From assembly GCA_030141605.1 (NCBI GenBank), contig JAQGDQ010000947.1, positions 1 through 64,000 on the forward strand: a stretch of DNA of 64,000 nt. The letters are read 5' to 3'. The position numbers and the translations under genes were made by a program. The notes under the pieces are model-generated. The model saw nothing but the letters and a program-made list of their open reading frames with translations, did not search any database and had not been told where the DNA came from. Below, piece by piece: positions 1 through 40,400 of this stretch (its first letter is position 1; each line of letters opens with the position of its first letter). The DNA is from Tubiluchus corallicola (Eukaryota > Animalia > Priapulida).

Positions 1-706
1 CTGCTGCATCATCTATTGATTGTTCATTGTCCAATCCCTATCACGCCTAGAAATCTTCCAGAAAAGAAACAAAAAACTTAATTTTGAATAGGATAAGTTT
101 GTTACACATACATACAAGTCACAAAAGTTCAATTTTTCCACACTTCAGGATAAAGTTCAACACACACAATTTAGAACTAACAAAATTTTCGATGTGCGAA
201 ATACTATAGTTAGGTAAGATAAAGACGGGAAGATTATGTACTTCAGGCTATCGATAAAAATACTTTTCTATCGTTGAAGTACAGTCATTTACAAAAGTTT
301 AAGACCAAAGTGATTTGTTTCATGAAAATTGACAAAACCATTGTTTAACACGGTTCCATCTAAAAACTATTCATTTATTCTTATTGCCCTTTCAGTATAT
401 CCCTCTTGATGTAAAGTCACGATTTGAACCCTCTGAGTCTCACTCAATGACGATTTTTTGCCCATTTTTTGGATCACAAGAAAAATACAAAAACGGCCGA
501 TCTGTATGGATAGCGGCAGGCAAATGAGTCAATCATACTCACTAGACGTACTGTTTCAAACCCCTAGCAGTATGAGGCAATCAACAAAGAATCTGATGCA
601 ATCAGGGTACAGTATGATGAAAATCCCGAAAACTCGAGCTTGGTCTTAAACTTTTGCAAGTGACTGTAATAAATTAAAAAAGAAAAATGAACGAGAGAAT
701 TATATA

Positions 707-1210
707 CAGGGTGCATAAGATTATGGATATGTATAAAATAAATAAAATAGCTTATTTTATGGATTTTTGAAATTTTATTTTATGGATATCAATAAAATAA
801 GAAATAGACTATATCTGGAACAAGATGCCCAGGGGGAAATCAATTAAAAAGTAAAATCAGGAGGCTTGAAACGTGTTTTTAAACACGCAGGACTTAGTTC
901 TAATTTTATCGGTTTCGTTTTAATTTTATCGGTTTCATATCACTTCAAATTTAATCAAATTTTACAAGACAATGCCTTGTAATTCATCACTTCAGTTCAA
1001 ATAATTCGCCTATTTGGTACGAATGTAGAATGCTCTCTACATTTCCGATCCAATGCCTGTATTAAGTTTTGATTGCCTTATTTTGTACAAAAAAATCACA
1101 AAAAAAAATATTTTTTTATTTTATGCATTTCTTATTTTATGGATTTTTCAAATTTTATTTTATGGATTTTTGGTCTTATTTTATGGATATCCATAATCTT
1201 ATGCAGCTTG
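707..1210. mobile_element. MITE with long TIRs (mirror 38324..38827)
   Basis: TA|CAGGGTGCATAAGATTATGGATAT ... ATATCCATAATCTTATGCAGCTTG, with internal TTATTTTATGGAT sub-repeats. Confidence 0.65.
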
Positions 1211-2061
1211 GTTATATACCAACGTAAAACTCTGGAACTTCAATATTTGCCCGCCGTCTCATCATATCTCGACGTTCCATCTTCTCACAAAGTTTGTTCC
1301 TCCTGTTTGTATCAGGATTTGGTAGAAACTCGGGAAATACGTGCCTATCGACAAATGTACACAAACAGGTATTTCAGTAGATGCAAAGCCAAGCAAAATT
1401 CCAATGTAACGAAGAACTCTCTTCATTAGTTATTTAGTAAAACGTTTTCGAATTTTTACAGCACTAATATTTGAACTTATTTGACATTTTTATTCTATTG
1501 TTTATGTGTAAAGGTATTTTTTAATAAAAAGTAAATGCAGACATTTACTGCTGATGGATGATGATACCCGACTGAATTTAATGTACATATAGATTAAAAT
1601 CATAAAGTCTTGCGGAAATGTTTTTGAAAAACTTAGTAATATTAAGTTAATTCTAATTTACAATCCATTTCATGGTTGTATTAAATTTTACTTTACGTAA
1701 AATAAATTATTATAAAAATAGCATTATGATGCTTTAATAGTGCCAGCATTGCTTGTTTATAAAATATAACAAAATCTTAAACTCCAGAATGAGTAATCAT
1801 ATCATTGTTATGATGCTTTAATAGTGTCGGCATTGTTTGTTTATAAAATATAACTTGTTTATAAAATATAACAAAATCTTAAACTCCAGAATAAGTAATC
1901 ACTAGTTTTTCTGCCCCCACCCCATTTGCCTAAAACTCTACTTGCGGCAGAAGGCAGACAAAAAAATTTAATTAATTCTCCCCTAAAAAGGAACAAAATT
2001 AATTCTCCATATATTCTGATAATTTCCTTCATGATATTAGTTCTCATTAATTATGTTCAAC

Positions 2062-2392
2062 ATTTGTGCAATAGTGCATGAATTTGTAATACATAACATG
2101 TTTTGTGCAATAGTGCATGAATTTGTAATATATAACACATTTTGTGCAATAGTACATAAATTTGTAACACATAACACATTTTGTGCACTAGTGCATGAAT
2201 TTGTAATTGATAACACATTTTGTGCAATAGTGCATGAATTTGTAATACATAACACATTTTGTGCAATAGTGCATGAATTTGTAACACATAACACATTTTG
2301 CGCAATAGTGCATGAATTTGTAACACATAACACATTTTGTGCAATAGTGCATGAATTTGTAATACATAAAACATTTTGTGCAATAGTGCATT
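2062..2392. repeat. 39-bp minisatellite, ~8.5 copies
   Basis: Unit TTTTGTGCAATAGTGCATGAATTTGTAATACATAACACA; produces spurious 13-aa repeat ORFs. Confidence 0.95.
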
Positions 2393-3479
2393 ATCAACTA
2401 TACACAAAGTGGATTTTCTCGTACATAAGTACAACCAACCTGTAATGGGCAGGGGCAGCCTCTAAAGATTCTTTTTCTGCATTTTCTGACGTACTCGGTG
2501 GTCCTGATGCAACTATTTGTGTGGATGTTGACAACGGTCTTTTGAAGCCTACATAAAACATTTATAAACTGCAACTGTGACGAACTGCACATGTAAATGT
2601 ATCTAGAAGCCAATTAAAGCGGTGTGTGTGTAGCATGCGGATGCGTTTTCGACGTGCAGGACAATCTGCGGAAAAAAATCAACAGGAAATAGCTGCAGAA
2701 AAAAAATAATGCATACTCAGGATGGATAAACTGGTGTATTGAAAACAATATAAACTGATTTTATCTATTCCGCATCCGGATGCTATGTAAACGCCACTTT
2801 ACACGTCGTGAAGTATAAAATATATAGATACGTATAATGGATTACCGAAATCACCTTTTATTAATATTAGGGTTCCTTATGTCCGATTTTTGGCTCCTGC
2901 GGGATTTTTGTGCTAAAATTAATTTTTTTTAAAAGTAAGGGATTGTGACCCCACAGACCAAAAAAATTGGGTGCCATTTTGAGGGGGCCATTTTCAGTTG
3001 GGAAGCAGATCAGAGGAATGCCCCATTGTTGACTATATAAAGACATACATAAAAATCGCAGGAAAGGGTATTTTATGATGCTGAATGCTAATCTGATATT
3101 AGCTTCTTCAAAAGAAAGGTTCCAATTGCCCTAGAAACCCATTTTACGGTATTCCTTCTGGCCCAGAAGTAGGGTACACTCCGATTATTTAGTGTACAAA
3201 TCTGAAACTTACTAGAATGGGGTGCTATAGAGTGCTGTATACAAATATGAACTTAGTTTCTCTCTGCGTATGAATCTATTTGCCCAGACTTCCATTTTCT
3301 GGGAACCGAAATGGGACAAAATGTAATATTAAGTACAAAAGACTAAATATTGCATATTGGTGTTACTGAACAAACGGATCTAGTAGCACAAACTGGCGAG
3401 TTTAGGATTTTTCAAGGACCCACAGCTAGGTCACAGTTCTCACATAAAAGAAAATGACTAGTAGGATGTTTTAACAGTG

Positions 3480-4680
3480 CCGAAGATGAAACTGATATTG
3501 TCATTTTTGAGGAAAGGCCGGCCTATACAACTTTGCACCCAGTCAAAGGAAGATTGCATGCAAAGTACAGGAGAAGGTGGTAAAGCTCCGCGACAACTGT
3601 TGGCTCGCCTTTTAATTTGTACAAGAGTCAAGCCCTGAATTTGGAGAGACGTTAGGCGACACCAATGGCAGTTCTGAGTTCTCTGTTATCCCAAAGTCCT
3701 TGTTCTGGTTAAAAACTTCTAATTACTACAGCGAAAATTCCTTCGTAGAATTTCACTTCAGAAGTAAAAGATGTTACAAGATACGTTTCAGGGAATGGAT
3801 TAAGAAAAAATGTGCATTATCTATGCCATGGTTGTTGTCCGAAGTATTTAAGAAAGAACCAAGCACGGCAAACTGGTACGACTTGCAGAAATCTACCTGC
3901 AAGCAATTGATAAGATCATGAGACGTTACACAGAGCGAAGGGTTATCTTTGGCTGCCACATCAAAGACTCACCAAAATCTGAGACAATGTCAAAGAGAAG
4001 CACGGGACTTATGACACCACGAGCTTGTGCAACTCAAAACCTTTCTGTGACACATTGAAACCAAAGTGGATCTGACTGTACACCTGGGAAAAGCGTTGCT
4101 TTGTGTTTTTGAGAAAAGAGATCAGGACTCAGTGGTAGTATATGGAATCTCGACACTTGCTAATAAGCCAGATCTGTATGACCAGTCTATCGGCCATCAT
4201 TCTCATGATGAAGCTGATATGCTTATCCCGCTACTTGTTCTTGATGCTGCTGAAAAGAATGGAGAAGTGCGGGATGTATGAGTTTGAATTTTTAGTGGAT
4301 AGATGGCGCCAGCAGGAGGAGCAGCAGCAGTAGGAGAGCGGTGGCGGTGAACAAAAATTTTTTAAAAATACAAGTGATGACCACTGCATTTACGAAGTCC
4401 ACGGCTTTACCATATTTGTATTTTACGTTTTAAATTAAAACGAAGTTAAAACATTGGATGTCGATGTATGTTCACCAAAAACAGATGTTTATATTGCTGA
4501 TGGATTTGATGGCAAGACATTCATTTAAAGGACGACTCCCTTTGGTCACAATTGGAAAAATTCAAAAGAGGATCGACAACATTGTTTGCTGTGCAGCTGT
4601 CATACCCGAGAAAGCCAAAAGGCCTTGGGTTTCATGCATTTTGAGGGGCAGACTGGGTTGGTAAGTGCTATGTAAACTTT
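3480..4680 (+). mobile_element. Degenerate DNA-transposon ORF with XPG/PIN-like motifs, Academ(X)-like (mirror ~34835..36055, -)
   Basis: Broken frames give [12 protein letters not shown] (HEEADT-like), DVCSP..FILLMDL (SPDTDVFILL-like) and LGFHAF*GADWVGK (HAFTGCD-like). The superfamily assignment is an inference. Confidence 0.55.
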
Positions 4681-4699
4681 TAACATACATCTTAACGAA

Positions 4700-5240
4700 A
4701 GATTTATGACATGCCACACTACTAGGATGATTAGTATTGCATACAAACGGTAACAAATAGCGACAACTGTGATATGATCAATTCCAAATTTTTCTCCCAG
4801 CAATATTCCAAGCTGTGTTAATATTTTCAATATTGCAACTGATAAGTTTCCAGGCATGAGATCCGCAAAGTAACTGACAAATCATCTGGACTATTTTAAT
4901 TTTCACTTTAAAACTAACCAGATAGAAATTCGAAATAACACTATTGGCCCTAAAAACAAAAACATTTTTTGAACAAGGTATAACAGCGCTGTCAGACAAG
5001 TCAGAAGTTAATATATGACCTAAATGAGAGTTTTATGCAAAGTTAAAGGTGCATCGAGAAATACCTGTGGTTCCCTATTACGTAAATGATGAGGATTGCG
5101 GAGAGTGAATAACATACATTTATATTTTACTTTGTTCCCATGAATATTAACAAAATTAAGGGAATATTTGCTGGCGTAAGTTTCACAAATCTCCAACATG
5201 CACTGAAGACTCTTCACACCTAGGAGCATTTCGGTCACGC
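4700..5240 (-). mobile_element. Non-LTR retrotransposon RT fragment (mirror 34275..34815, +)
   Basis: [29 protein letters not shown] and [14 protein letters not shown] resemble the region following YADD in LINE ORF2. Confidence 0.65.
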
Positions 5241-5703
5241 TTAGCAGTGAAAGAGTTCATCCGATCATGTACAAAAGAAGTTAAAAATGACAGCTGAGCT
5301 TGAACGGAGTACATGACAGTTAACATAAAAACATTGGATAGAGCAGAAAGAAAACATTTTCGCATGTTGATTAATAATCCATAGCATTTGTCATTGTAGG
5401 CATATCCACCAATTATTTGTACAGCTAATACAACAATACCAAAGCATGTGAAGCAAAATGTTTGCATCTATTGGTAAAGGCAACTGTAATGCATATGTAA
5501 ATGGTGCAGGTTTCAAAGTAAATGTTGCGACTTGTATTAAGGTCTCGATTCAGATGCATGCTATTTTCACCGGAGAAATTCAAAAACAATACTTATAAAA
5601 TCTATCGTAAATGTGAACAAGGTGAAAACGGGTCGTGAAAATGTAATGTGGGAAGACGATTAAATGAAAACTACAATTAAAAAACTGTGAAAAGAAATTG
5701 TGT

Positions 5704-6608
5704 TCTACGAGCGGAGTTGCTGGGCAACAACAGCAATTTTACAAACAGCTTCGGAGAAGCAGATATTGTTCCTAGTTACAAAGCCAGTATTGTTGAAGTA
5801 ATCATCTCGAGCATAATCTCTGTAATTACCGTGGTAGGAAACACACTTGTACTGGTTGCCATAGCAAACACAAAATTGCTACACACTCGAAAAAATGCCA
5901 TCATTGTATCTCTAGCAGCGGCAGATTTGATGGTTGGTGCTTTTGCATTACCATTCCTAATTGCCCGCGACTTCTCTAGAAGGATAAGAGTATTTCAAAA
6001 ACTCTCACCATTTGTAGGTCTTTCAACAACTACAGTAAGCGTATATCACATCCTACTGATAGCTGTGGAGAGGTATATCACAATCGTGCATCCTCTAAGA
6101 TGCAATGTCTACGTGAATACAAAAATGGTGTCACTATCCATAGCTGGGATTTGGATAACGGGAACAACCACGGGATACGTGCCGAGCGACTTTACTTACA
6201 CCACATTTGACACCGTTTCTTTTCGCTCTTTTTGAAATGCTGATGATTCCTGTAATTCTGGTGACGATTACGTTAACTGCTGTCGTGTGGAAAGCAGCAT
6301 GGCGACAAGCGCAGCGTGTAGACGACCAAAGTCAACAACCTTCACAGGGCGCGATGAGACAGCTTAAAGAACTAAAGGCGACAAAAACTCTGGGTGCTGT
6401 GGTGCTTGCTGCTATTGTTTTCTGGTTGCCGTCTATAATTGTGCCAATAATCAATGCAAAATGCAAGTGTATAACAAGGGATATGTTTGCACCTGGAATA
6501 TGGCTGGTTTATGCAAATAGCGCCATTAATCCAGTAATATATGCAGCATTCAGTACAAGCCACAGAACTGCCATGACAAAGATACTAAAATGTAAAATAA
6601 CAACTTAA
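5704..6608 (+). pseudogene. Disabled mirror copy of the GPCR
   Basis: A 22-bp deletion at ~5711 removes the ATG. A 1-bp insertion at ~6183 (GTGCCGAGCG vs GTGCGAGCG) splits it into ORFs 5687..6235 and 6207..6608. Confidence 0.88.
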
Positions 6609-6650
6609 ATTGTTAAGTAGTTGTTGTAAGTAAGTAGTGTTGTTTGTAAG

Positions 6651-7422
6651 GCTGGCTCAGTAACACGTACGGTCATTTGGAAATTCCCAGCCTCCAGTAT
6701 AGAATATAGCAGTCACAAAGAAATTTGCTATTTAAACTGATAAGTCAAAGAACTGGTATGGTGGACGATCCATTTATGTTTGTTTGGAATTTATGTAAAA
6801 CTAACAATACCAAAGGATACAAGTACCTCCAAAAGATCCTTTCTACTGATATCAAAGACGATGTTCCGGCAAAAATTCGTAACAAAACGGGAACAAAATT
6901 TTTGACATTTATAGAACTGAACCCATGTTTAGAACCTCATAAAGTCTATAATGATATGGAATCTGAAATCCTGGACTACCAAAGAGTTGAATTTACCAGA
7001 CTTAGGACGTCATCGCATAATCTCATGGTAGAAACCGGACGTTGGTCCAGAATACCGAGAGAAGACAGATTATGTACATGTGGGGAAGAAGTTCAAACAG
7101 AAGCCCACGTCTTATTGAGATGTCCGGTGACAGAAGATTTACGAATTGAACATTCTGAGTTGAACTTTTCTAGCATTTGTAACCTTATGCACTCCGCCAA
7201 TTTAACGTCATTAATGAAATATTGTTGGAGATGTGTTAAGACGTATGAGTGAAGAACTATTGTGCCCCTACATTAAAACGCGATATTTTTGTTGATTCGG
7301 TAAAGAAATTTGCCCTCTGTATATGATTTTTTGTTTTGTAGTTAAATTTTAATTTCGTTAATTATATAGTTATCGTTGCCTACTTATGTTATGGGAAATC
7401 ATTACGGTGAATAAGCTAATTC
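6651..7422 (+). mobile_element. 5'-truncated LINE (ORF2 C-terminus plus 3' UTR), present only in the left arm
   Basis: ORF 6725..7252 contains RLRTSSHNLMVETGRW..RLCTCG..TEAHVLLRCP (CCHC-type). TAAG is duplicated at both ends and the right arm has the empty site at ~32850. Confidence 0.85.
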
Positions 7423-8430
7423 TAAGCAGGTACGTTTATCATGTGCTAATACGCAAGCGTAGCAGTTTTGATTTGAATCTGTTACCCGCTCGTCCACTGC
7501 AATTAACCTCGTTACCCAAGAATTTCTAGAAACTAAATATTTAATCACGTGTCTATTGGTTCCAATTTCGAGTGGTTTTCAATCAAATCACGCTGGAGCA
7601 TCAGCGTAAGGATTTAACAGTTAAGGAAAAACTGAAAATTTTAGAGTGGCACGATAAATTTCTGAAAATTCCGGACAGAGGTGGTGTGCAGCAGCGCAGT
7701 TGAAAAGTTCCCAAACTATTGGCAGAATTTTGAAAGAAACTATCACAAGTTAAACAGTCAGCAAGCCAAAATGAGAATCTAGCGTCTGAACGTTCAAGAA
7801 ATGCTGTTTTTACTGGTAAACAAACGCCACACAACTCATTCAGCTGTGAGATCAGGGTATTATTCCAACACTGAAGGCATACTATAGAAGAGAAATGCGG
7901 GTGAAAGTGTTAGAAGCAATGGATTCGGATGATGCAGCTCATCAATTAAGTGCAAATGACATGGCTAAAAAAAGTTTTCTGAACACACTGCATCTATTGG
8001 CTATGTCATGGAGCAATTCAATTCAGTCAACACTCTATTCAGAACTGTTTCAGTCACGTCCGATTCACATGCCTGAAGAAAACTGATAATGAAATTCTTA
8101 CTACGTCGCAAGAGATAAGCCTATCACCACCTGGTATGAGCAGCATCGAATTCGAAATCTGGGTGGTAATTGATTCGGTCATTCAAGTTACACCGCAAAT
8201 AACGGAACACAAAATCATCACCATAGCAAGTGCGTGTCAAGACGAACATACAGAGGACGACAAAACTACTTGCGAGAAAACAAAGGCACCGCCAACTGCT
8301 AAATGTTTTATGAGAATACGTGCATCACACAGCAACAGCTTTTCAATGTTTTCATGATTATGAGAACCTTGTAAGCCAATTTCTTCGCAAGAAGATGAGG
8401 CAGCCGACTTTTACATAAAAATTAGTCATT
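7423..8430 (+). mobile_element. Internally deleted Tigger/pogo transposase remnant
   Basis: [14 protein letters not shown] (HTH_psq-like N-terminus) and [30 protein letters not shown] (end of DDE_1). Confidence 0.8.
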
Positions 8431-11400
8431 GGATCAATTTAAAGTTGTTACATAACTTTAATCCATAGGATAATACCTTAAAATGTGTAAGTAGCGTATA
8501 TTAACTGCACACGTAAGTAATTTTTATTTCACTCCATAAATTTACAATAATTTAAGAATAAAATATACAAAAATACAAACCAACCTAGGAGAACCTATAA
8601 GTAATTTTCAGATTTTTGTTGACTTTCAGACACGCACGAAAACTTGCGAGCATATAGTAGTCGATAGAGTTCGCTCTATAAGTATAAGTCAATAAAAAGA
8701 TTGCTCAAGTACCTGGTGGGATTAGTAATAGTACTGCACGACAACCAAATGACGCCATTTTTTGCCAAAATGAGCGCGTCCAAGCGTGACGTGTTGGGAC
8801 TTCAAATTGAGTTTACTAATTACACGAGGCGCGTATTGCATTTTTATGGCTGAAACGTTCTATAATTTTCCTCAAAAAAGCTCAGCTTCCAGATAACCTT
8901 GGCTTTTGCTTTAAACTCCACTTTATGTTAACCAATAACATACTAATATTTCTTACTTACAAGTCTTTGGCGTCAACATGCGGATACATCTCTTGCTTCT
9001 CGACAAATTACGCACACCATCCGATATTAAACTGCCACAGAATTTACAAACAGAAGCCATAATTAACAGAACAAGCAAGTTCAGCAGGTCGCTTACAAAA
9101 ACAGCATACCGCTAATCGGACCCCGTCATTGGCAAAAGCGAAACAACAAAGTTGAAAATTAAACACGACGATCGCTAATCCAAGCACCTAGATAAGATGA
9201 TAAGAATGTGCATTTCTCTGCCAGAAATTAGAATCGAATTAGAGACTTTCGAATATATGAATCAGACCGAATTATTCGAGATTTCTAATCCATTTGTAAT
9301 CCATTTCTGGAATAAGAAATCTGGCAGCAGATTCTAATCATTTTTTTTCAACTTTCGTTTAAAAAGCTGGTACAAATACCTACTAACCTACTACTTTTAG
9401 GTCATTTTTCTTTTTCCATTGCTAAAGTTACACAATTTTTATGTAACTGTGATTTTAGTATCAGTATACCATATCTTAAAATTTGTTTATGAAAATAACC
9501 TTGCACACAGCCAGTTTATGTAGTATTCAATGGGTTATGTAGTATTTAACGTGCATTGCTTTGCCAATGTACATTGTATGTATTTGTACAAGTAAAACTG
9601 AATTGAATTGAATTGTACATGTGCGATTTGTTTCTGTGCCATTTTTAAAATGCCATTTTTCCTGTGCCATTTTTACCTACTTTCGATCTGTGCCATTATA
9701 TTCCGAAGGTAAACAAACTAACTCGTAGAGTTAGTGTACAAACTAACTATATGATTTCTTGAGGCAAATTAACAAATGGAGTGGGGACACATGTAGGTGC
9801 TCAGCTTGTGCTACCTAATATGTGTTAATTATTTTTAAGTACACTGTATCTTCATTGTTTTAATGGATCAGTTTTAGTGTTTTTTATCTCCATATAATCT
9901 TTTCATATTCTCAGAATTAAGTGATGAACACCTTTTTAAATATTTGTGGCTGGCTTGTTTTTATCCTTGTATGATTTTATTTTTATATTTTGCATACCTT
10001 TTTATAATACCCTTTTTTCATTTTTTGATTTTATTTCCAATTTGAGTAATAGTGTGTGTCTATTTTAGTAATTTTTTTTAGCATACTATAGTTTAGTCGG
10101 TATGAATAGCCTATTTGGCTGTTCTTCTGTTGAACACCCGACTTTAAGTAAAGATTATGAATATACATATGTACAAAGACTATAAACCACAGAAAGTAGG
10201 GAAACATACTGCGCAGTAGTTCTCGCAGTTAGTGTCGCCCTAGCGACAGTTCAGTAACTTTTTGTTACAAGTTAAATATTTTGTACACTAAGCAAAGACT
10301 GCTAAGCCTACATCTCTCTTTGGCGATTTATAGCACCTGTTATATTTTTGAATATTATTTAAAGCAAGCATAAGGCATTAAGAATAATTAGTAGTTAAAA
10401 TAAAAATTATTATAATCATATCTCATAAAAATTAATAGGCTTATTTGCAAAAGAAATTAAGAAAGTTGATCAAAAAGAAAGTTTGCAAATACCTGGCTTA
10501 TGTAGTATTCGATTTCTGCAGAAATATTTTTTCGAAAAAACATTCCTATTTAATGTTCTTATCAGGAAATATTAGGCCTGACTTTCATAGTACCTTTCAT
10601 AGAAAGAAAATCGATTTTTTAGAAGAGCAAATAATTTTCTAGAACAAAACCTAATCTGAGCATCTGCATGTTTTGTTAATTCCAAGTTAAAAAATGTTTA
10701 AAAAGCATATAATCATACATTGGCCTTTGTTATGAGTTGGAGTTAGTTATAAAATTACGTTGAACAAGCAGAGATGCATTTACGACATTACTCCTCTTTT
10801 TTATTATCTGTAACAAAAAATAACTGAATGAAACATCAGAGCTGTCATCCTAAGCAGCCGACATTACTTCCACCTCTATAACAACCAACTAACTAGGTCA
10901 AAATCTGGTCAGAAGCCAACCTGGCGCATAAATTAGAATCTGCACGCGTGTCATAACACCTTATATATCATGTGCAGACATTACTTATATTTAGCCTAAT
11001 TTTTTAAGATTCAGATAGGCTTACATAAAATAAATGTTCATTAAATACAGTTTGCTTACGTGTAAAAATGTACTTGTACAAGCATATTAATAAAACGCCT
11101 GTGGCTAAATCCACTGACAAGTCTTGATAAATATTATTTATTGATGGGCTTAAATTAATTGATTTTATACGGGCCTAGGTGCCTAGGGCAATCATTTTAT
11201 ATAGTTAAATATATAGGCTCAGCTTCATAGAATCTAATTTTCGGTATTTGACTCAAATTTAGCTGATCTTATTTGTTTTTCTTTTGTTTTGTTTATTAAT
11301 CAGAGTCTGATTGCAGCTTGATTCAGTTCCCTATTTGAAAGTTTATTTAAATTTCTGTTTGGCTAGCTTGCTTTTCATTTTATTTAATTTGTTTTTTATT

Positions 11401-11632
11401 ATTTTTTTTATTTAGTATTATTGTTATTATTTTGCATGTTTTTCTCATTTTGAGTTATGCATGGACGATATGACAGCTTGAATTTTGATCATTTTTTATT
11501 CATTTGTACCACATTATTTGGCTTTTGCTTACCATTGCTTTTTGTTTATCATTTTCCTGTATGTTTAGATATCTTTGATTGCATTTTCATCCTTCAGTTA
11601 TTTAAAGTTGATTAGAGAATTTTAAACAGATC

Positions 11633-11865: not shown

Positions 11866-12014
11866 TATGAAGCACTGTATCATGCAATTCTTGTTGTGTG
11901 CATGCGTGCGTGTGCGAATTATTTAATTTTCGTTCTTCCTCTTTGTACACTTCGATATGTACTTACGCAGAAGAATAACGAATTTATATACAACCTAAAC
12001 GCTAACTTCAGAAC

Positions 12015-27548: not shown

Positions 27549-30500
27549 AGTCATCAAATAACAGCATATCTTAAACATATCTTACATGATGTGAATATTC
27601 TAGCATGTATGCCCAAGAACATTCTGTACAGCAAACTCGCCACTGGCTCCAGACCCACAGGGAGGCCACTGCTCCGCTACAAAGATGTATGTAAACAGGA
27701 CCTCAAGGCAGGCGGCATTATGATACCACGTACTGTTTGGCCTGACAAACTATGCATTTAGCTTCAAACTGTATTCATCAAAATTATTGTGTATTGTGCA
27801 CGTGTATATGCTAGCTGCTAAAGACTTCTTATTTTATTTGTATTATCTGGACTATATCGCATTGTATTTACTTTACTGGATAATTATCTGTATTGTGGTG
27901 ATAATTGTAAGATGCAGTGTGGAAAAGAATACACTCTTAAACTATTGATGAACCTTATAAAGCAGGTCGAAAACATCTGTGGTCTATTCTTACAGCATTG
28001 CTTAGACTGTTAAATGTTTTTAATACTGTACAAAACCCTTGTATGGCTGAATGTACGCCCAGTAATGGAGTATGGAGACAGTCAGACGAAATATGGTAAT
28101 CAGTTAAGTTAGAATATATTAGAAAGGTAGAAACCATCCAGAGTCACACAACGAAACTGGTACCAGGACTGCATGATCTATCATACTCCAAACATATGCA
28201 GAGATTGGAACAAGTTGCGCACACATGTCAGGTCACTTTAAAAGACATTTGACAAATGATGGTGGGCAGACCATCCGGAGAAATAAAATAAAACCTTTCA
28301 AACCGAGTAGACGCTAGAGGCGTTGCAGTAATCATCATTTCTACGTGTCACAGCAGACAGCGAAAAATTCAGACGTTAATTGCTTCACGTTTGTACATGC
28401 AACCAGTTTAGTACGAAAATGGAGAAAACAATGGGCAAAAAAGCCGATGCTTCGCCTAGTACATTACGGAATAACATCGATTATTAATCGAATCATATAA
28501 TACAGTATTATTATTTTAATACAAATCATCATAATTATGCCCATCACGTCTACTGTAGACAATGGGCAGGCAGAATTCCAAAATAAAGAAATCTGTCCTA
28601 AAGACTGGTAAACACAGCAATTTAATGTAGCAAAAAAACACAAGCTATACCAGTGGCTTGTAAGCACTACTTCCCAGGTACGGGTAGGATTATGCACAGG
28701 ACACGTGAAAACCGCGAATGAGCTATGGAAAACGCCATTTGCGTGACGTCAGAGCAAAAGTTCTGAAGTTAGCGTTTAGGTTGTATATAAATTCGTTATT
28801 CTTCTGCGTAAGTACATATCGAAGTGTACAAAGAGGAAGAACGAAAATTAAATAATTCGCACACGCACGCATGCACACAACAAGAATTGCATGATACAGT
28901 GCTTCATATATTCAATTCAATTCAAAACGTGTATTTATTTCCATATTCATGATATAACTGAGGCAAGTAAATGTATTTAATTTTCTCAATGGAAATACGA
29001 TGGTGAAAGACCAAGAGGGTCAACTAGTCAAGCCATCCTTCAACGGATGTATGTGATTATTGGGATGACACTGTAACTATTTCACTCATGAATAGTAGTG
29101 AAATTACATTGTTACTATTTTACTTAGCAACTTGATCTGTTTAAAATTCTCTAATCAACTTTAAATAACTGAAGGATGAAAATGCAATCAAAGATATCTA
29201 AACATACAGGAAAATGATAAACAAAAAGCAATGGTAAGCAAAAGCCAAATAATGTGGTACAAATGAATAAAAAATGATCAAAATTCAAGCTGTCATAATT
29301 TTATAACTAACTCCAACTCACAACAAAGGCCAACGTATGATTATATGCTTTTTAAACATTTTTTAACTTGGAATTAACAAAACATGCAGATGCTCAGATT
29401 AGGTTTTGTTCTAGAAAATTATTTGCTCTTCTAAAAAATCGATTTTTTTCTATGAAAGGTATTACGCATGAAAGTCAGGCCTAATATTTCCTGATAAGAA
29501 CATTAAATAGGAATGTTTTTTCGAAAAAATATTTCTGCAGAAATCGAATACTACATGAGCCAGGTATTTGCAAACTTTCTTTTTGATCAACTTTCTTAAT
29601 TTCTTTTGCAAATAAGCCTATTAATTTTTATGAGATATGATTATAATAATTTTTATTTTAACTACTAATTATTCTTAATGCCTTATGCTTGCTTTAAATA
29701 ATATTCAAAAATATAACAGGTGCTATAAATCGCTAAAAAGAGATGTAGGCTTAGCAGTCTTTGCTTAGTGTACAAAATATTTAACTTGTAACAAAAAGTT
29801 ACTGAACTGTCGCTAGGGCGACACTAACTGCGCGAACTACTGCGCAGTATGTTTCCCTACTTTCTGTGGTTTATAGTCTTTGTACATATGTATATTCATA
29901 ATCTTTACTTAAAGTCGGGTGTTCAACAGAAGAACAGCCAAATAGGCTATTCATACCGACTAAACTATAGTATGCTAAAACAATTTACTAAAATAGACAC
30001 ACACTATTACTCAAACTGGAAATAAAATCAAAAAATGAAAAAGGGGTATTATAAAAAAGTATGCAAAATATAAAAATAAAATCATACAAGGATAAAAACA
30101 AGCCGGCCACAAATATTTAAAAAGGTGTGCATCACTTAATTCTGAGAATATGAAAGATTATATGGAGATAAAAAAACACTAAAACTGATCCATTAAAATA
30201 ATGAAGATACAGTGTACTTAAGAATAATTAACACAAATTAGGTAGCACAAGCTGAGCACCTACATGTGTCCCCACTCCATTTGTTAATTTGCCTCAAGAA
30301 ATCATATAATTAGTTTGTACACTAACTCTACGAGTTAGTTTGTTTACCTTCGGAATATAATGCCACAGGAAAAGCAATGGCACAGATCGAAAGTAGGTAA
30401 AATGGCACAGGAAAAATGGCATTGTAAAAATGGCACAGAAACAAATCGCACATGTTACATGTACAATTCAATTCAATTCAGTTTTATTTGTACAAATACA

Positions 30501-31329
30501 TACAATGTACATTGGCAAAGCAATGCACGTAAATACTACATAACCCATTGAATACTGCATAAACTGGCTGTGTGCAAGGTTATTTTCATAAACAAAATTT
30601 AATTTTAAGATATAGTATACTGATACTAACATCACAGTTACATAAAAATTGTGTAACTTTAGCAATAGAAAAAAAGACCCAAAAGTAGTAGTTTAGTAGG
30701 TATGTGTACCAGCTTTTTGTTTCAACGAAAGTTGAAAAAAATTGGTTAGAATCTGCTGCCAGATTTCTTATTCCAGAAATGGATTACAAATGGATTAGAA
30801 ATCTCAAATAATTCGGTCTGATTCATATATTCGAAAGTCTCTAATTCGATTAGATTCTAATTTCTTATCATCTTATCTAGGTGCTTGCTAGGGTCGATGG
30901 CTCGACGCCTCTACAGGCCTACCAGTACATTTGTATTTTCCCTGGGTTGTGCTTATAATTCATTTAATGCCACTGGACTTGATTAGCGATCGTCGTGTTT
31001 AATTTTCAACTTTGCTGTTTCGCTTTTGCCAATAACGAGGTCCGATTAGCGTATGCTGTAAAATTGCTGTTTTTGCGAGCGACCTGCTGAACTTGCTTGT
31101 TCTGCTAATTATGGCTTCTTTTTGTAAATTCTGTGGCAGTTTGATATCTGATGGTGTACGTAATTTGTCGAGAAGCAAGAGATGTATCCGCATGTTGACG
31201 CCAAAGACTTGTAAGTGAGAAATATTAGTATGTTATTTGTTAACATAAAGTGGAGTTTAAAGCAAAAGCCAAGTTTATCTGGAAGCTGAGCTTTTTTGAG
31301 GAAAATTATAGAAAGTTTCAGCCATAAAA

Positions 31330-31420
31330 ATGCAATACGCGCCTCGTGTAATTAGTAAAATCAATTTGAAGTCCCAACACGTCACGCTTGGACGCGCTCA
31401 TTTTGGCGAAAAATGGCGTC
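31330..31420 (+). promoter_or_regulatory. Putative MRPL19 promoter (mirror at ~8750-8840)
   Basis: CpG-rich patch with ACGTCA (CRE half-site) and AAAATGGCG (YY1-like, overlapping the ATG) in an AT-rich background. Confidence 0.4.
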
Positions 31421-34400
31421 ATTTGGTTGTCGTGCAGTACTAATCCCACCAGGTACTTGAGCAATCTTTTTATTGACTTATACTTATAGAGCGAACTCTA
31501 TCGACTACTATATGCTCGCAAGTTTTCGTGCGTGTCTGAAAGTCAACAAAAATCTGAAAATTACTTATAGGTTCTCCTAGGTTGATTTGTATTTTTGTAT
31601 ATTTTATTCTTAAATTATTGTAAATTTATGGAGTAAAATAAAAATTACTTACTTGTACAGTTAATATATGCTACTTGCACATTTTAAGGTATTATCCTAT
31701 GGATTAAAGTTGTGTAACAACTTTAAATTGATCCAATGACTAATTTTTATATAAAAGTCGGCTGCCTCATCTTCTTGCGAAGAAATTGGCTTAAAAGGTT
31801 CTCATAATCATAAAAACATTGAAAATCTGTTGCTGTGTGATGCTCGTATTCTCATAAAACATTTAGCAGTTGGCGGTGCCTTTGTTTTCTCGCAAGTAGT
31901 TTTGTCGTCCTCTGTATGTTTGTCTTGACACGCACTTGCTATGGTGATGATTTTGTGTTCCGTTATTTGCGGTGTAACTTGAATGACCGAATCAATTTGC
32001 ACCCAGATTTCGAATTCGATGCTGCTCATACCAGGTGGTGATAGGCTTATCCCTTGCAACATAGTAAGAATTTCATTATCAGTTTTCTTCAGGCATGTGA
32101 ATCGTACGTGACTGAAACAGTTCTGAATAGAGTGTTGACTGAATTGAATTGCTCCATGACATAGCCAATAGATGCAGTGTGTTCAGAAAACTTTTTTTAG
32201 CCATGTCATTTGCACTTAATTGATGAGCTGCATCATCCGAATCCATTGCTTCTAACACTTTCGCCCGCATTTCTCTTCTATAGTATGCCTTCAGTGTTGG
32301 AATAATACCCTGATCTCACAGCTGAATGAGTTGTGTGGCGTTTGTTTACCAGTAAAAACAGCATTTCTTGAACGTTCAGATGCTAGATTCTCATTTTGGC
32401 TTGCTGACTGTTTAACTTGTGATAGTTTCTTTCAAAATTCTGCCAATAGTTTGGGAACTTTTCAACTGCGCTGCTGCACACCACCTCTGTCCGGAATTTT
32501 CAGAAATTTATCGTGCCACTCTAAAATTTTCAGTTTTTCCTTAACTGTTAAATCCTTAAGCTTATGCTCCATTTTCAAACTTCTGAACTCTATGCTGTTA
32601 TTTCATCTATGATGTTTACTCTTGTCAGCCACACGGAGTACCAGCTGATTACAGTTCCTGCATCTTTGACAGTTAACTGAAGTCGCGTGATTTGCTTAAA
32701 AGCCACTCAAATTGAAACCAATAGACAAGTGATTAAATATTTAGTTTCTAGAAATTGTTGGGTAATGAGGTTAATTGCAGTGGATGAGCAGGTAACAGAT
32801 TCAAATCAAAACTGCTGTGCTTGCGTATTAGCACATGACAAACGTAGCTGCTTACAAACAACACTGCTTACTTACAACAACTTAAGTTGTTATTTTGCAT
32901 TTTAGTATCTTTGTCATGGCAGTTCTGTGGCTTGTGCTGAATGCTGCATATATTACTGGATTAATGGCGCTATTTGCATAAACCAGCCATATTCCAGGTG
33001 CAAACTTATCCCTTGTTATACACTTGCATTTTGCATTGATTATTGGCACAATTATAGACGGCAACCAGAAAACAATAGCAGCAAGCACCACAGCACCCAG
33101 AGTTTTTGTCGCCTTTAGTTCTTTAAGCTGTCTCATCGCGCCCTGTGAAGGTTGTTGACTTTGGTCGTCTACACGCTGCGCTTGTCGCCATGCTGCTTTC
33201 CACACGACAGCAGTTAACGTAATCGTCACCAGAATTACAGGAATCATCAGCATTTCAAAAAGAGCGAAAAGAAACGGTGTCAAATGTGGTGTAAGTAAAG
33301 TCGCTCGCACGTATCCCGTGGTTGTTCCCGTTATCCAAATCCCAGCTATGGATAGTGACACCATTTTTGTATTCACGTAGACATTGCATCTTAGAGGATG
33401 CACGATTGTGATATACCTCTCCACAGCTATCAGTAGGATGTGATATACGCTTACTGTAGTTGTTGAAAGACCTACAAATGGTGAGAGTTTTTGAAATACT
33501 CTTATCCTTCTAGAGAAGTCGCGGGCAATTAGGAATGGTAATGCAAAAGCACCAACCATCAAATCTGCCGCTGCTAGAGATACAATGATGGCATTTTTTC
33601 GAGTGTGTAGCAATTTTGTGTTTGCTATGGCAACCAGTACAAGTGTGTTTCCTACCACGGTAATTACAGAGATTATGCTCGAGATGATTACTTCAACAAT
33701 ACTGGCTTTGTAACTAGGAACAATATCTGCTTCTCCGAAGCTGTTTGTAAAATTGCTGTTGTTGCCCAGCAACTCCGGTTCTGACATCTCAGTTTTCCGC
33801 TCGTAGAACACAATTTCTTTTCACAGTTTTTTAATTGTAGTTTTCATTTAATCGTCTTCCTACATTACATTTTCACAACCCGTTTTCACCTTGTTCACGT
33901 TTACGATAGATTTTATTATAAGTATTGTTTTTTAATTTCTCCGGTGAAAATGCCATGCATCTGAATCCGAGACCTTAATACAAGTTGCAACATTTACTTT
34001 GAAACCTGCACCATTTACATATGCATTACAGTTGCCTTTACCAATAGATGCAAACATTTTGCTTCACATGCTTTGGTATTGTTGTATTAGCTGTACAAAT
34101 AATTGGTGGATATGCCTACAATGACAAATGCTATGGATTATTAATCAACATGCGAAAATGTTTTCTTTCTGCTCTATCCAATGTTTTTATGTTAACTGTC
34201 ATGTACTCCGTTCAAGCTCAGCTGTCATTTTTAACTTCTTTTGTACATGATCGGATGAACTCTTTCACTGCTAAGCGTGACCGAAATGCTCCTAGGTGTG
34301 AAGAGTCTTCAGTGCATGTTGGAGATTTGTGAAACTTACGCCAGCAAATATTCCCTTAATTTTGTTAATATTCATGGGAACAAAGTAAAATATAAATGTA

Positions 34401-37400
34401 TGTTATTCACTCTCCGCAATCCTCATCATTTACGTAATAGGGAACCACAGGTATTTCTCGATGCACCTTTAACTTTGCATAAAACTCTCATTTAGGTCAT
34501 ATATTAACTTCTGACTTGTCTGACAGCGCTGTTATACCTTGTTCAAAAAATGTTTTTGTTTTTAGGGCCAATAGTGTTATTTCGAATTTCTATCTGGTTA
34601 GTTTTAAAGTGAAAATTAAAATAGTCCAGATGATTTGTCAGTTACTTTGCGGATCTCATGCCTGGAAACTTATCAGTTGCAATATTGAAAATATTAACAC
34701 AGCTTGGAATATTGCTGGGAGAAAAATTTGGAATTGATCATATCACAGTTGTCGCTATTTGTTACCGTTTGTATGCAATACTAATCATCCTAGTAGTGTG
34801 GCATGTCATAAATCTTTCGTTAAGATGTATGTTAAAAGTTTACATAGCACTTACCAACCCAGTCTGCCCCTCAAAATGCATGAAACCCAAGGCCTTTTGG
34901 CTTTCTCGGGTATGACAGCTGCACAGCAAACAATGTTGTCGATCCTCTTTTGAATTTTTCCAATTGTGACCAAAGGGAGTCGTCCTTTAAATGAATGTCT
35001 TGCCATCAAATCCATCAGCAATATAAACATCTGTTTTGGTGAACATACATCGACATCCAATGTTTTAACTTCGTTTTAATTTAAAACGTAAAATACAAAT
35101 ATGGTAAAGCCGTGGACTTCGTAAATGCAGTGGTCATCACTTGTATTTTTAAAAAATTTTTGTTCACCGCCACCGCTCTCCTACTGCTGCTGCTCCTCCT
35201 GCTGGCGCCATCTATCCACTAAAAATTCAAACTCATACATCCCGCACTTCTCCATTCTTTTCAGCAGCATCAAGAACAAGTAGCGGGATAAGCATATCAG
35301 CTTCATCATGAGAATGATGGCCGATAGACTGGTCATACACATCTGGTTTATTAGCAAGTGTCGAGATTCCATATACTACCACTGAGTCCTGATCTCTTTT
35401 CTCAAAAACACAAAGCAACGCTTTTCCCAGGTGTACAGTCAGATCCACTTTGGTTTCAATGTGTCACAGAAAGGTTTTGAGTTGCACAAGCTCGTGGTGT
35501 CATAAGTCCCGTGCTTCTCTTTGACATTGTCTCAGATTTTGGTGAGTCTTTGATGTGGCAGCCAAAGATAACCCTTCGCTCTGTGTAACGTCTCATGATC
35601 TTATCAATTGCTTGCAGGTAGATTTCTGCAAGTCGTACCAGTTTGCCGTGCTTGGTTCTTTCTTAAATACTTCGGACAACAACCATGGCATAGATAATGC
35701 ACATTTTTTCTTAATCCATTCCCTGAAACGTATCTTGTAACATCTTTTACTTCTGAAGTGAAATTCTACGAAGGAATTTTCGCTGTAGTAATTAGAAGTT
35801 TTTAACCAGAACAAGGACTTTGGGATAACAGAGAACTCAGAACTGCCATTGGTGTCGCCTAACGTCTCTCCAAATTCAGGGCTTGACTCTTGTACAAATT
35901 AAAAGGCGAGCCAACAGTTGTCGCGGAGCTTTACCACCTTCTCCTGTACTTTGCATGCAATCTTCCTTTGACTGGGTGCAAAGTTGTATAGGCCGGCCTT
36001 TCCTCAAAAATGACAATATCAGTTTCATCTTCGGCACTGTTAAAACATCCTACTAGTCATTTTCTTTTATGTGAGAACTGTGACCTAGCTGTGGGTCCTT
36101 GAAAAATCCTAAACTCGCCAGTTTGTGCTACTAGATCCGTTTGTTCAGTAACACCAATATGCAATATTTAGTCTTTTGTACTTAATATTACTAAATTTGT
36201 CCTATTTTGGTTCCCAGAAAATGGAAGTCTGGGCAAATAGAATCATACGCAGAGAGAAACTAAGTTCATATTTGTATACAGCACTCTATAGCACCTCATT
36301 CTAGTAAGTTTCAGACTTGTACATTAAGTAATTGGAGTGTGCCCTACTTCTGGGCCAGAAGGAATACCGTAAAATGGGTTTCTGGGGCAATTGGAACCTT
36401 TCTTTTGAAGAAGCTAATATCAGATTAGCATTCAGCATCATAAAATACCCTTTCCTGCGATTTTTATGTATGTCTTTATATAGTCAACAATGGGGCATTC
36501 CTCTGATCTGCTTCCCAACTGAAAATGGCCCCCTCAAAATGGCACCCAATTTTTTTGGTCTGTGGGGTCACAATCCCTTACTTTTAAAAAAAATTAATTT
36601 TAGCACAAAAATCCCGCAGGAGCCAAAGATCGGACATAAGGAACCTTACTATTATTAAAAGGTGATTTCGGTAATCCATTATACATGTCTGTATATTTTC
36701 TTCATACTATGTCTATATACTTCATGACGTGTAAAGTGGCATTTACGTAGCATCCGGATGCGGAATAGATAAAATCAGTTTATATTGTTTTCAATACACC
36801 AGTTTATCCATCCTGAGTATGCATTATTTTTTTTCTGCAGCTATTTCCTGTTGATTTTTTTCCGCAGATTGTCCTGCACGTCGAAAACGCATCCGCATGC
36901 TACACACACACCGCTTTAATTGGCTTCTAGATACATTTACATGTGCAGTTCATCACAGTTGCAGTTTATAAATGTTTTATGTAGGCTTCAAAAGACCGTT
37001 GTCAACATCCACACAAATAGTTGCATCAGGACCACCGAGTACGTCAGAAAATGCAGAAAAAGAATCTTTAGAGGCTGCCCCTGCCCATTACAGGTTGGTT
37101 GTACTTATGTACGAGAAAATCCACTTTGTGTATAGTTGATAATGCACTATTGCACAAAATGTTTTATGTATTACAAATTCATGCACTATTGCACAAAATG
37201 TGTTATGTGTTACAAATTCATGCACTATTGCGCAAAATGTGTTATGTGTTACAAATTCATGCACTATTGCACAAAATGTGTTATGTATTACAAATTCATG
37301 CACTATTGCACAAAATGTGTTATCTATTACAAATTCATGCACTAGTGCTCAAAATGTGTTATGTGTTACAAATTTATGTACTATTGCACAAAATGTGTTA

Positions 37401-40400
37401 TATATTACAAATTCATGCACTATTGCACAAAACATGTTATGTATTACAAATTCATGCACTATTGCACAAATGTTGAACATAATTAATGAGAACTAATATC
37501 ATGAAGGAAATTATCAGAATATATGGAGAATTAATTTTGTTCCTTTTTAGGGGAGAATTAATTAAATTTTTTTGTCTGCCTTCTGCCGCAAGTAGAGTTT
37601 TAGGCAAATGGGGTGGGGGCAGAAAAACTAGTGATTACTTATTCTGGAGTTTTAAGATTTTGTTATATTTTATAAACAAGTTATATTTTATAAACAAACA
37701 ATGCCGACACTATTAAAGCATCATAACAATGATATGATTACTCATTCTGGAGTTTAAGATTTTGTTATATTTTATAAACAAGCAATGCTGGCACTATTAA
37801 AGCATCATAATGCTATTTTTATAATAATTTATTTTACGTAAAGTAAAATTTAATACAACCATGAAATGGATTGTAAATTAGAATTAACTTAATATTACTA
37901 AGTTTTTCAAAAACATTTCCGCAAGACTTTATGATTTTAATCTATATGTACATTAAATTCAGTCGGGTATCATCATCCATCAGCAGTAAATGTCTGCATT
38001 TACTTTTTATTAAAAAATACCTTTACACATAAACAATAGAATAAAAATGTCAAATAAGTTCAAATATTAGTGCTGTAAAAATTCGAAAACGTTTTACTAA
38101 ATAACTAATGAAGAGAGTTCTTCGTTACATTGGAATTTTGCTTGGCTTTGCATCTACTGAAATACCTGTTTGTGTACATTTGTCGATAGGCACGTATTTC
38201 CCGAGTTTCTACCAAATCCTGATACAAACAGGAGGAACAAACTTTGTGAGAAGATGGAACGTCGAGATATGATGAGACGGAGGGCAAATATTGAAGTTCC
38301 AGAGTTTTACGTTGGTATATAACCAAGCTGCATAAGATTATGGATATCCATAAAATAAGACCAAAAATCCATAAAATAAAATTTGAAAAATCCATAAAAT
38401 AAGAAATGCATAAAATAAAAAAATATTTTTTTTTGTGATTTTTTTGTACAAAATAAGGCAATCAAAACTTAATACAGGCATTGGATCGGAAATGTAGAGA
38501 GCATTCTACATTCGTACCAAATAGGCGAATTATTTGAACTGAAGTGATGAATTACAAGGCATTGTCTTGTAAAATTTGATTAAATTTGAAGTGATATGAA
38601 ACCGATAAAATTAAAACGAAACCGATAAAATTAGAACTAAGTCCTGCGTGTTTAAAAACACGTTTCAAGCCTCCTGATTTTACTTTTTAATTGATTTCCC
38701 CCTGGGCATCTTGTTCCAGATATAGTCTATTTCTTATTTTATTGATATCCATAAAATAAAATTTCAAAAATCCATAAAATAAGCTATTTTATTTATTTTA
38801 TACATATCCATAATCTTATGCACCCTGTATATAATTCTCTCGTTCATTTTTCTTTTTTAATTTATTACAGTCACTTGCAAAAGTTTAAGACCAAGCTCGA
38901 GTTTTCGGGATTTTCATCATACTGTACCCTGATTGCATCAGATTCTTTGTTGATTGCCTCATACTGCTAGGGGTTTGAAACAGTACGTCTAGTGAGTATG
39001 ATTGACTCATTTGCCTGCCGCTATCCATACAGATCGGCCGTTTTTGTATTTTTCTTGTGATCCAAAAAATGGGCAAAAAATCGTCATTGAGTGAGACTCA
39101 GAGGGTTCAAATCGTGACTTTACATCAAGAGGGATATACTGAAAGGGCAATAAGAATAAATGAATAGTTTTTAGATGGAACCGTGTTAAACAATGGTTTT
39201 GTCAATTTTCATGAAACAAATCACTTTGGTCTTAAACTTTTGTAAATGACTGTACTTCAACGATAGAAAAGTATTTTTATCGATAGCCTGAAGTACATAA
39301 TCTTCCCGTCTTTATCTTACCTAACTATAGTATTTCGCACATCGAAAATTTTGTTAGTTCTAAATTGTGTGTGTTGAACTTTATCCTGAAGTGTGGAAAA
39401 ATTGAACTTTTGTGACTTGTATGTATGTGTAACAAACTTATCCTATTCAAAATTAAGTTTTTTGTTTCTTTTCTGGAAGATTTCTAGGCGTGATAGGGAT
39501 TATGTGCTAAACTCCTTCAGAACGGCACCATTCAAAATGGGTCTTGCAAGACCTATGATTTTCTGCTACTGTTTGAGCACAGACATAACTAAACAACAAA
39601 TTGTACTGAGAACTAAATGATCACAACAAATTATGTACTGTTCTATTTCAGAGAATCTCGGCTATCCAATCTTGCTGCTTGTTATAAATCATGCTATTCA
39701 TAAGTGATGTTTTGATTGGATAAAGTTAAGAAAAACACACCTTTCTCAGCTTTGTCTTGTGTGCACTTGCGTGATCGTACAAACTATTTGGTAATCGCCT
39801 GTTTGCTGCAGCCCAAGAGAACCCTCTGCTCTAGAAAGTTTCAGGAAAAGCTAACCAATCAGCCAAGGAGAAGTTAAGGTCCTTAAACGGGAATTAATCC
39901 TTAAAAATAGAGTAGACTTGAGGCCAAAGTGTATCAGAGTGTTGTGTCTAGAGAATTGAAATTGTCTGCATTAGTTGATTTCACACAAGTGATACTGTAC
40001 ATTGTTGCAGTGCAAACACTACAGCTACTGAAAGCTTTTTTTAATTTATTCATTAAAAGTCGATTGTTTAAGGTAAGCAAATGCATTTCATTGATAATTT
40101 TGCATGAAAATCCATTGTGTGAGGAGTAGATAACCTACAAAAATTATCAAATATAATGTAATTACTGCTTAGTGAAACCAGTTTTTTATGAAGCCATGCA
40201 AAACGCAGCGAACACTTGCAGTCCTGAAGGAGTTAATTATATATATGTTGTTTTTTTGAATGGAAACACTAGAAAAACTGATCAGTGTTTGAAAAGGAAC
40301 AAGGATACAGTTATTTCCTAATTAGTTCCTTGAAGGCTGTGATGGACAAGATTCTGTTTTTGAATTTTCCTAGAGGTATTCCAAGCTTCAGCAACCTCTA

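What the first reader, a model, noticed from the sequence alone, without database searches (positions are those of the whole stretch)
33..39501. 39.5-kb gene-bearing palindrome
Seen: two ~18-19 kb arms in inverted orientation around a 2.18-kb spacer, duplicating MRPL19 exons 1-3, a GPCR, WDR3 exons 1-5 and the divergent intergenic region between MRPL19 and WDR3. Each arm has private insertions, deletions and minisatellite lengths, so this is not simply a fold-back read artefact. Inference: either a real inverted duplication or two haplotypes stitched head-to-head.
Basis: partly seen in the sequence, partly recalled or inferred. Interest (0 to 1): 0.85.

Follow-up and report, generated by a model that had tools for sequence, protein, structure and literature searches.

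The report
Two haplotypes folded into false palindrome
The 39.5-kb mirror-image stretch is in the assembled sequence, but public data from two samples lack its fold point and the deeply sequenced one shows only two-copy depth, so it is likely an assembly error that joined an animal's two chromosome copies head-to-head inside the WDR3 gene.

Summary
The inverted arms exist (33-19100 and 21279-39501; 203 substitutions in 17,518 aligned columns, 41 indels). The 'spacer' is not foreign: it holds WDR3 exon 6 (19555-19454, minus strand), in phase with right-arm exon 5. So the right arm plus spacer is the native locus, and the one abnormal join is 19100/19101, at a 14-bp imperfect inverted match. None of 4 public runs (2 samples, contigs only) bridges that join. 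Their contigs enter the spacer from other sequence instead, and in the deep run arm depth (121-165) does not exceed exon-6 depth (179). The arm differences behave like alleles: 7 of 8 WDR3 coding changes are synonymous, and sample S1 branches at left/right SNPs. Most likely the left arm is the second haplotype, attached through a fold-back chimeric read (0.65) or a mis-walked 2.2-kb heterozygous inversion (0.2). A real private inverted duplication (about 0.1) is not excluded, because S1 carries variants found in neither arm and may not be the assembled animal. Low interest.

The parts
33..19100 (.). Left arm: inverted second version of the right arm; likely the other haplotype
   Evidence: allelic behaviour
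21279..39501 (.). Right arm: native locus, continuous with WDR3 exon 6 on its left and the later MRPL19 exons on its right
19101..21278 (.). 'Spacer' = native WDR3 intron 5 remainder (with dispersed repeats and a 94-bp minisatellite at 20786-21257), exon 6 and the start of intron 6; single copy in the window
19454..19555 (-). WDR3 exon 6, 102 nt, AG/GT flanks, phase 0-0, in frame with right-arm exons 1-5
   Evidence: blastp against 5 of 5 WDR3 homologues, residues about 256-289, E 7e-9 to 2e-5; no stop in exons 1-6
19087..19100 (.). Fold point: 14 bases identical to the reverse complement of 21279-21292; the native intron-6 contigs of both samples also align from 19087. The abnormal join is 19100/19101
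13617..18772 (+). WDR3 exons 1-5, left copy (13617-13787, 15558-15767, 16978-17096, 17971-18049, 18569-18772); open frame, no exon 6 behind it
21607..26762 (-). WDR3 exons 1-5, right copy (26762-26592, 24823-24614, 23397-23279, 22405-22327, 21807-21607)
36985..38314 (+). MRPL19 exons within the right arm (36985-37093, 38190-38314); the gene continues outside the arm at about 40443-40592, 42452-42640 and 43266-43670
1220..2548 (-). MRPL19 left-arm copies of the same two exons (2548-2440, 1344-1220)
32882..33820 (-). Intronless rhodopsin-family GPCR, 312-aa stop-to-stop frame, right arm
   Evidence: PF00001, E 2e-34
5681..6608 (+). Left-arm GPCR copy, split over two frames by one extra base at 6182; also lacks 22 bp near the start
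6647..7422 (+). Left-only 776-bp insertion holding a 180-aa frame with no Pfam hit; repeated elsewhere in the genome by contig depth
10756..11468 (.). Left-only 713-bp insertion, made of high-copy sequence by contig depth
1..32 (.). 32 bases outside the left arm; they match neither the right arm's continuation nor the native intron-6 continuation

Best explanation
The palindrome is likely an assembly artefact: the right arm and spacer form one continuous MRPL19-WDR3 locus, and the left arm is likely the second haplotype of the same region, attached backwards through what was probably a fold-back chimeric read. Shown: the spacer holds WDR3 exon 6; the only abnormal join is 19100/19101; native intron 6 and intron 5 align over about 14 bases in inverted orientation there; two public samples lack the join; arm variants occur as alleles. 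Inferred: a DNA strand copied through exon 6 folded back onto intron 5 at that short match during library making or amplification, leaving a 2.18-kb loop. That molecule gave the assembler an edge from the left end of the spacer to the left end of the arm. The assembler then walked haplotype L backwards, through the spacer, into haplotype R, and filled the left arm with the other homologue's reads. WDR3 exons 7 onward would lie on another contig.
For: (1) Exon 6 lies in the spacer in phase with right-arm exon 5; nothing of WDR3 beyond it is in the window. (2) 0 of 4 runs bridge 19100/19101. In X1, one contig (depth 152) leaves the window at 19100 with 69 other letters and another (depth 162) enters at 19087 from 226 other letters. 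X2 and X4, from different samples, show the same foreign 30-letter end at 19087. The depth of bin 19070-19088 is fully accounted for by those contigs (X1 169.2 observed vs 169.3; X4 3.68 vs 3.68). A join on half of S1's chromosomes would put the entering contig near 117, not 162. (3) X1 arm contigs have depth 121-165 against 179 for exon 6; 6 of 8 fall below the three-copy range and 2 of 8 do not discriminate. (4) WDR3 left/right coding substitutions are 7 synonymous of 8 (neutral expectation 0.27, P = 7e-4), and the one MRPL19 change is synonymous. Both versions therefore evolved inside working genes. (5) 5 of 38 S1 contig ends abut a left/right SNP (0.4 expected, P = 5e-5), so both variants sit in one two-copy sample. 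Sample S2 matches the left arm with 0 differences at 8846-9263 and 9897-10289, where the arms differ. (6) Divergence is patchy (variance/mean 8.8; identical runs up to 2037 bp), as expected of alleles. (7) Amplification chimeras are mostly inverted, with short overlaps and distances under 10 kb (PMC9984789 passages), and cause false inverted duplications and misassemblies (PMC6218980; bioRxiv 10.64898/2026.06.11.730069).
Against: S1 carries variants found in neither arm where the arms are identical (for example 7 at 3606-4109, and 17 plus 8 gap letters at 15339-15905), and X1 holds only 0.60 of the words. S1 may therefore not be the assembled animal, so the read test may show only that the structure is not shared. 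All four runs are contigs, which drop rare variants, and the tool warns that depth is no copy number. The shallow runs are noisy: in X2, 2 of 7 arm contigs (16.5, 15.5) are 1.6-1.7 times the exon-6 contig (9.6), and X4 ranges from 3 to 51. The 69 letters of the X1 contig past 19100 were not printed, so their identity with 21278 onward is inferred. Left and right are identical for only 144 bases beside the join, shorter than a chimeric long read would leave unless consensus calling overwrote it. I saw no chimeric read and do not know whether the library was amplified.
Confidence: 0.65

Rival explanations
1. The assembled animal is heterozygous for a real 2.18-kb inversion of the spacer (19101-21278) between the two short inverted matches, which flips WDR3 exon 6. 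One breakpoint of such an inversion is exactly the 19100/19101 adjacency. The assembler entered the spacer from haplotype L and left it into haplotype R. The 39.5-kb palindrome would still be false, but the junction real.
For: Geometry: joining the left end of the spacer to the left end of the arm is one junction of this inversion (from the sequence). It explains directly why left-type alleles reach to within 144 bases of the join. Exon 6 is 102 nt, phase 0-0, so its loss would be in frame.
Against: The join is absent from 4 of 4 runs, including both chromosomes of S1. The window has no N and resolves 470-650-bp minisatellites, which suggests long reads that should span 2.2 kb (inference). Loss of a WDR3 propeller exon would probably be harmful (inference).
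Confidence: 0.2
2. A real, recent, private inverted duplication: a fold-back or template switch at the 14-bp match that copied about 19 kb from the homologous chromosome, cutting WDR3 in intron 6 on that chromosome.
For: The spacer of 2.18 kb and the short inverted match fit human fold-back inverted duplications (spacers 766-70,466 bp, median 3,428; 2-8 bp microhomology; PMC3907307 passages). The sequence is gap-free across the join. S1 may not be the source animal.
Against: In that study 9 of 9 tested duplications came from the same chromosome, which predicts identical arms; here the arms differ as alleles do. The join is absent from two samples. Bases 1-32 are not the native intron-6 continuation (0 matches in the window at up to 3 mismatches), so this is not a clean insertion that would spare WDR3. 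Yeast Utp12 is essential (PMC3897721 passage; orthology to WDR3 recalled).
Confidence: 0.11
3. An old, fixed palindrome kept similar by arm-to-arm gene conversion, like those of mammalian Y chromosomes.
For: A mosaic of identical and 2-5% divergent patches.
Against: A fixed structure would show the join and doubled arm depth in every animal; neither is seen in S1, and the join is not seen in S2. The left copies of WDR3 and MRPL19 are truncated within the window, yet their differences are synonymous.
Confidence: 0.04

Closest known systems
False heterotype (haplotype) duplication in diploid assemblies (VGP, bioRxiv 10.1101/2020.05.22.110833, passages read)
   Same: Both haplotypes of a heterozygous region are kept in one primary sequence and look like a gene duplication; recognised by read depth and haplotype-specific variants.
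   Different: The passages read describe tandem or separate-contig placement, often with a gap. Here the copy is inverted, gap-free and joined at a short inverted match.
Inverted chimeras and palindromic reads from whole-genome amplification (PMC9984789, PMC6218980, bioRxiv 10.64898/2026.06.11.730069; passages read)
   Same: Inverted join at a short overlap, loop under 10 kb, leading to false inverted duplications in long-read assemblies.
   Different: A chimeric molecule has arms from one template, whereas the assembled arms here are two haplotypes. Reported overlaps peak at 5-8 nt (12-13 nt hotspots also noted); here about 14 imperfect, of which at least 6 appear exact. The library type is unknown.
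Human fold-back inverted duplications with a disomic spacer (PMC3907307, passages read)
   Same: A single-copy spacer of a few kb, with inverted microhomology at the spacer-duplication boundary.
   Different: Those arose from the same chromosome in 9 of 9 tested cases and show a copy gain. Here the arms are allelic and no gain is seen in the deep public sample.
'Hairpin-capped broken bubbles' in Verkko graphs (PMC11466045, one main-text passage and the start of the Fig. S2 legend)
   Same: Two haplotype paths of a bubble capped by a hairpin in a diploid assembly graph, judging by the name.
   Different: I saw only the name and part of the legend, not the figure. There it breaks scaffolds rather than being output as one contig, so this is a lead only.

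Membership tests
False haplotype duplication (assembly error) | The two copies differ by allelic variants | tested here: met
   7 of 8 WDR3 coding changes synonymous; 5 of 38 S1 contig ends abut left/right SNPs; left-exact stretches in S1 and S2
False haplotype duplication (assembly error) | Summed depth over both copies equals single-locus depth | tested here: inconclusive
   Met in X1 (6 of 8 contigs below the three-copy range, 2 uninformative). X2-X4 are noisy, depths are contig means, and S1 may not be the source animal
False haplotype duplication (assembly error) | The join is not supported by the source animal's reads | not testable with these tools
   0 of 4 public runs bridge it, but these are contigs, no long reads were offered, and the source is not established
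Amplification or library inverted chimera | Short inverted overlap at the switch point, distance under 10 kb | tested here: met
   Native contigs align from 19087 to 19100, the same bases that mirror 21279-21292; loop 2178 bp
Amplification or library inverted chimera | The join rests on one or a few reads, or on an amplified library | not testable with these tools
   No raw reads or library record
In-vivo fold-back inverted duplication | Single-copy spacer with inverted microhomology | tested here: met
In-vivo fold-back inverted duplication | Both arms derive from the same chromosome | tested here: not met
   Arms differ at 1.16% plus 41 indels in an allelic pattern, starting 144 bases from the join
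In-vivo fold-back inverted duplication | Copy gain over the arms | tested here: inconclusive
   No gain in X1; source animal uncertain
Fixed gene-converting palindrome (Y-type) | Present across individuals, with doubled arm depth | tested here: not met
   Join absent in S1 and S2; two-copy depth in X1

The most novel reading that the evidence does not exclude
The assembled animal really carries a 39.5-kb or longer palindrome whose two arms come from different homologues, made by a template switch at a 14-bp match. The WDR3 pre-mRNA read through the fold point would then form a stem of more than 5 kb with exon 6 in its loop, silencing that allele and possibly yielding small RNAs against WDR3.
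Probability: 0.1. Interest if true: 0.55.

Novelty: not a real feature. Interest (0 to 1): 0.1.

Why it matters
As an artefact it matters only for curation. The contig should be broken at 19100/19101 and the left part moved to the alternate haplotype; otherwise WDR3, MRPL19 and the GPCR look duplicated and WDR3 looks truncated. It also gives a side-by-side view of two alleles (about 1.2% substitutions, 0.7-0.8-kb insertion differences, an open versus frameshifted GPCR). If it were real, it would be a germline fold-back between homologues, unlike the same-chromosome human cases, through a ribosome-assembly gene.

Tried and rejected
No whole genome is held, so I could not look for the contig with WDR3 exons 7 onward or for sequence left of base 1.

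No RNA holder was listed. X2 and X3 have no cover at 18880-19086, which is a hole and proves nothing.

Protein searches found no WDR3 or MRPL19 from this organism (best identities 60% and 76% over the full query) and did not place it beyond invertebrate animal. MRPL19 exon 1 was not located.

'Clean insertion of the left arm into intron 6' was rejected because bases 1-32 do not match the native continuation. 'Spacer is neutral filler' was rejected (exon 6). 'S1 is the source animal' could not be decided.

Look-ups of earlier findings near this place, by words and among relatives gave nothing on this feature; two searches listed unrelated notes from the same genome. A paper search for palindromic contigs from hifiasm gave 1 unrelated paper. 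PMC9668749 (passages) added only general statements on false duplications. I make no claim that such contigs are undescribed.

Full report
Observation. A self-comparison of the window shows collinear inverted blocks from 33/39501 inward to 19100/21279. Aligning the arms gives 203 substitutions in 17,518 columns (1.16%) and 41 indels, six of them 50 bp or longer. Divergence is strongly patchy: variance over mean is 8.8 in 500-column bins, with identical runs of up to 2037 bp beside patches of 2-5%. I verified two MRPL19 exons per arm and did not find exon 1. The organism is an unannotated invertebrate animal by its hits; no genome is held.

Anatomy. It has AG/GT flanks, continues right-arm exon 5 in frame without a stop, and matches residues about 256-289 of 5 of 5 homologues tested. 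MRPL19 likewise continues from the right arm into the right flank. The right arm and spacer are therefore one ordinary locus, MRPL19 and WDR3 facing apart, and the single abnormal join is 19100/19101 in WDR3 intron 6. No WDR3 sequence beyond exon 6 is in the window: the one weak hit from the C-terminal parts of 5 homologues falls back on exon 5.

Public data. Six runs were listed; four hold the stretch (X1-X3, sample S1; X4, sample S2), all as contigs. I laid those four on 1-20000 and on 18880-19420. No listed contig bridges the join. In X1, a contig of depth 152 follows the arm to 19100 and goes on with 69 other letters, which were not printed; I infer they are the right-arm continuation. A second contig of depth 162 comes from 226 foreign letters and enters at 19087. 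X2 and X4, from different samples, show the same foreign 30-letter end at 19087, and that sequence is not in the window. Many pieces were not shown (316). However, the depth of bin 19070-19088 is fully explained by the listed contigs (X1 169.2 vs 169.3 computed; X4 3.68 vs 3.68), so no hidden bridging contig exists in those two runs. X2's value of 1.17 fits one contig covering only the last two bases, and X3 has none. If half of S1's chromosomes carried the join, the entering contig would be near 117 rather than 162. The native intron-6 contigs align from 19087, and 19087-19100 is also the exact reverse complement of 21279-21292. The switch thus lies in a match of about 14 bases; the X1 contig has 2 differences over 19087-19201, and an X2 contig is exact from 19095.

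Depth. X1 arm contigs have mean depth 121-165 against 179 for the exon-6 contig. Of 8 contigs, 6 fall below the range for three copies (3 of these also slightly below the two-copy range) and 2 cannot discriminate. Against this: the tool warns that contig depth is not a copy number; in shallow X2, 2 of 7 arm contigs are 1.6-1.7 times the exon-6 contig; X4 varies from 3 to 51.

The arms behave as alleles. Of 8 substitutions in WDR3 exons 1-5, 7 are synonymous (neutral share 0.27; P = 7e-4), and the one in MRPL19 is synonymous too. A long-dead truncated copy would not look like this. Of 38 true ends of S1 contigs listed in the left arm, 5 abut a left/right SNP (0.4 expected; P = 5e-5), meaning both variants occur in a sample at two-copy depth. 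X2 matches the left arm exactly over 728 and 588 bases where the arms differ at 8 and 13 substitutions. X4 does so over 418 and 393 bases, where my alignment has 24 and 8 substitutions (some beside indels may be alignment noise). X1 shows right-arm letters at 1253, 2861, 2867, 3274 and 18937-18956. The main caveat is that S1 also has variants in neither arm where the arms are identical, so it may be another animal, or the arms were homogenised in consensus calling. I could not decide this.

Mechanism. Joining the left end of the spacer to the left end of the arm is what an intrastrand fold-back makes, and also what one breakpoint of a 2.18-kb inversion makes. Either edge lets an assembler walk haplotype L backwards, cross the spacer and continue on haplotype R (inference). 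I favour a chimeric fold-back read (0.65). It directly spans the hairpin, would be dropped from contigs, and matches the known features of inverted chimeras (PMC9984789), which cause false inverted duplications and misassemblies (PMC6218980; bioRxiv 10.64898/2026.06.11.730069). The inversion reading (0.2) better explains left-type alleles only 144 bases from the join, but long reads should span 2.2 kb, and neither sample has it. A real duplication (0.11) fits the spacer and microhomology of human fold-back events, but those came from the same chromosome in 9 of 9 tested cases (PMC3907307). It would also cut a gene whose yeast counterpart is essential (PMC3897721; orthology recalled). A fixed Y-type palindrome (0.04) is contradicted. 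All papers were seen as passages only; for PMC11466045 also part of one supplementary legend.

Outer end. The arm stops 32 bases from the window edge. Those bases are neither the mirror of 39502 onward nor native intron 6. A contig end or another left-only insertion is more likely than a true end there, since 7.8% of the left arm lies in such insertions. So 39.5 kb may be a lower bound.

Verdict. It works like a false haplotype duplication (bioRxiv 10.1101/2020.05.22.110833) in inverted form. Full membership needs the source reads. Two earlier notes describe a caspase-STING gene on separate pieces of this genome. That might mean retained haplotypes, but I did not test it and do not count it. 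Interest 0.1.

Noticed in passing
window 5681-6608 (+) and 32882-33820 (-): The intronless GPCR has an open 312-aa frame in the right arm, but in the left arm one extra base at 6182 and a 22-bp loss near the start: a presumed loss-of-function allele or a consensus error. An X3 contig stops aligning at 6183 with 9 letters left over, which fits the right-arm form.
   Followed up: partly
window 6647-7422: Left-only insertion with a 180-aa frame and no Pfam hit. Its Cys/His-bearing end resembles the C-terminus of non-LTR retrotransposon ORF2 (recalled, not tested), and a 4-bp repeat flanks it.
   Followed up: partly
window about 50533-59433 (-): A gene ending in an NZF zinc finger whose best single-domain PDB matches are TAB3 and TAB2, with a 413-aa Pro/Ser/Gln-rich frame upstream (58192-59433): probably TAB2/3, tail-to-tail with MRPL19.
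   Followed up: partly
window 7850-8357 and 31808-32315: Decayed DDE_1 transposase fragment (PF03184), present in both arms.
   Followed up: no
window 17395-17713, 19689-19942, 20064-20226, 20519-20879, 42032-42272, 56137-56489: A family of short dispersed repeats at 72-89% identity; the 94-bp minisatellite at 20786-21257 is built from one of its segments.
   Followed up: no
window 15339-15905: Sample S1 holds a WDR3 exon-2 region haplotype with 17 differences and 8 gap letters from both arms, which are identical here: high allelic diversity, or a haplotype missing from the assembly.
   Followed up: partly
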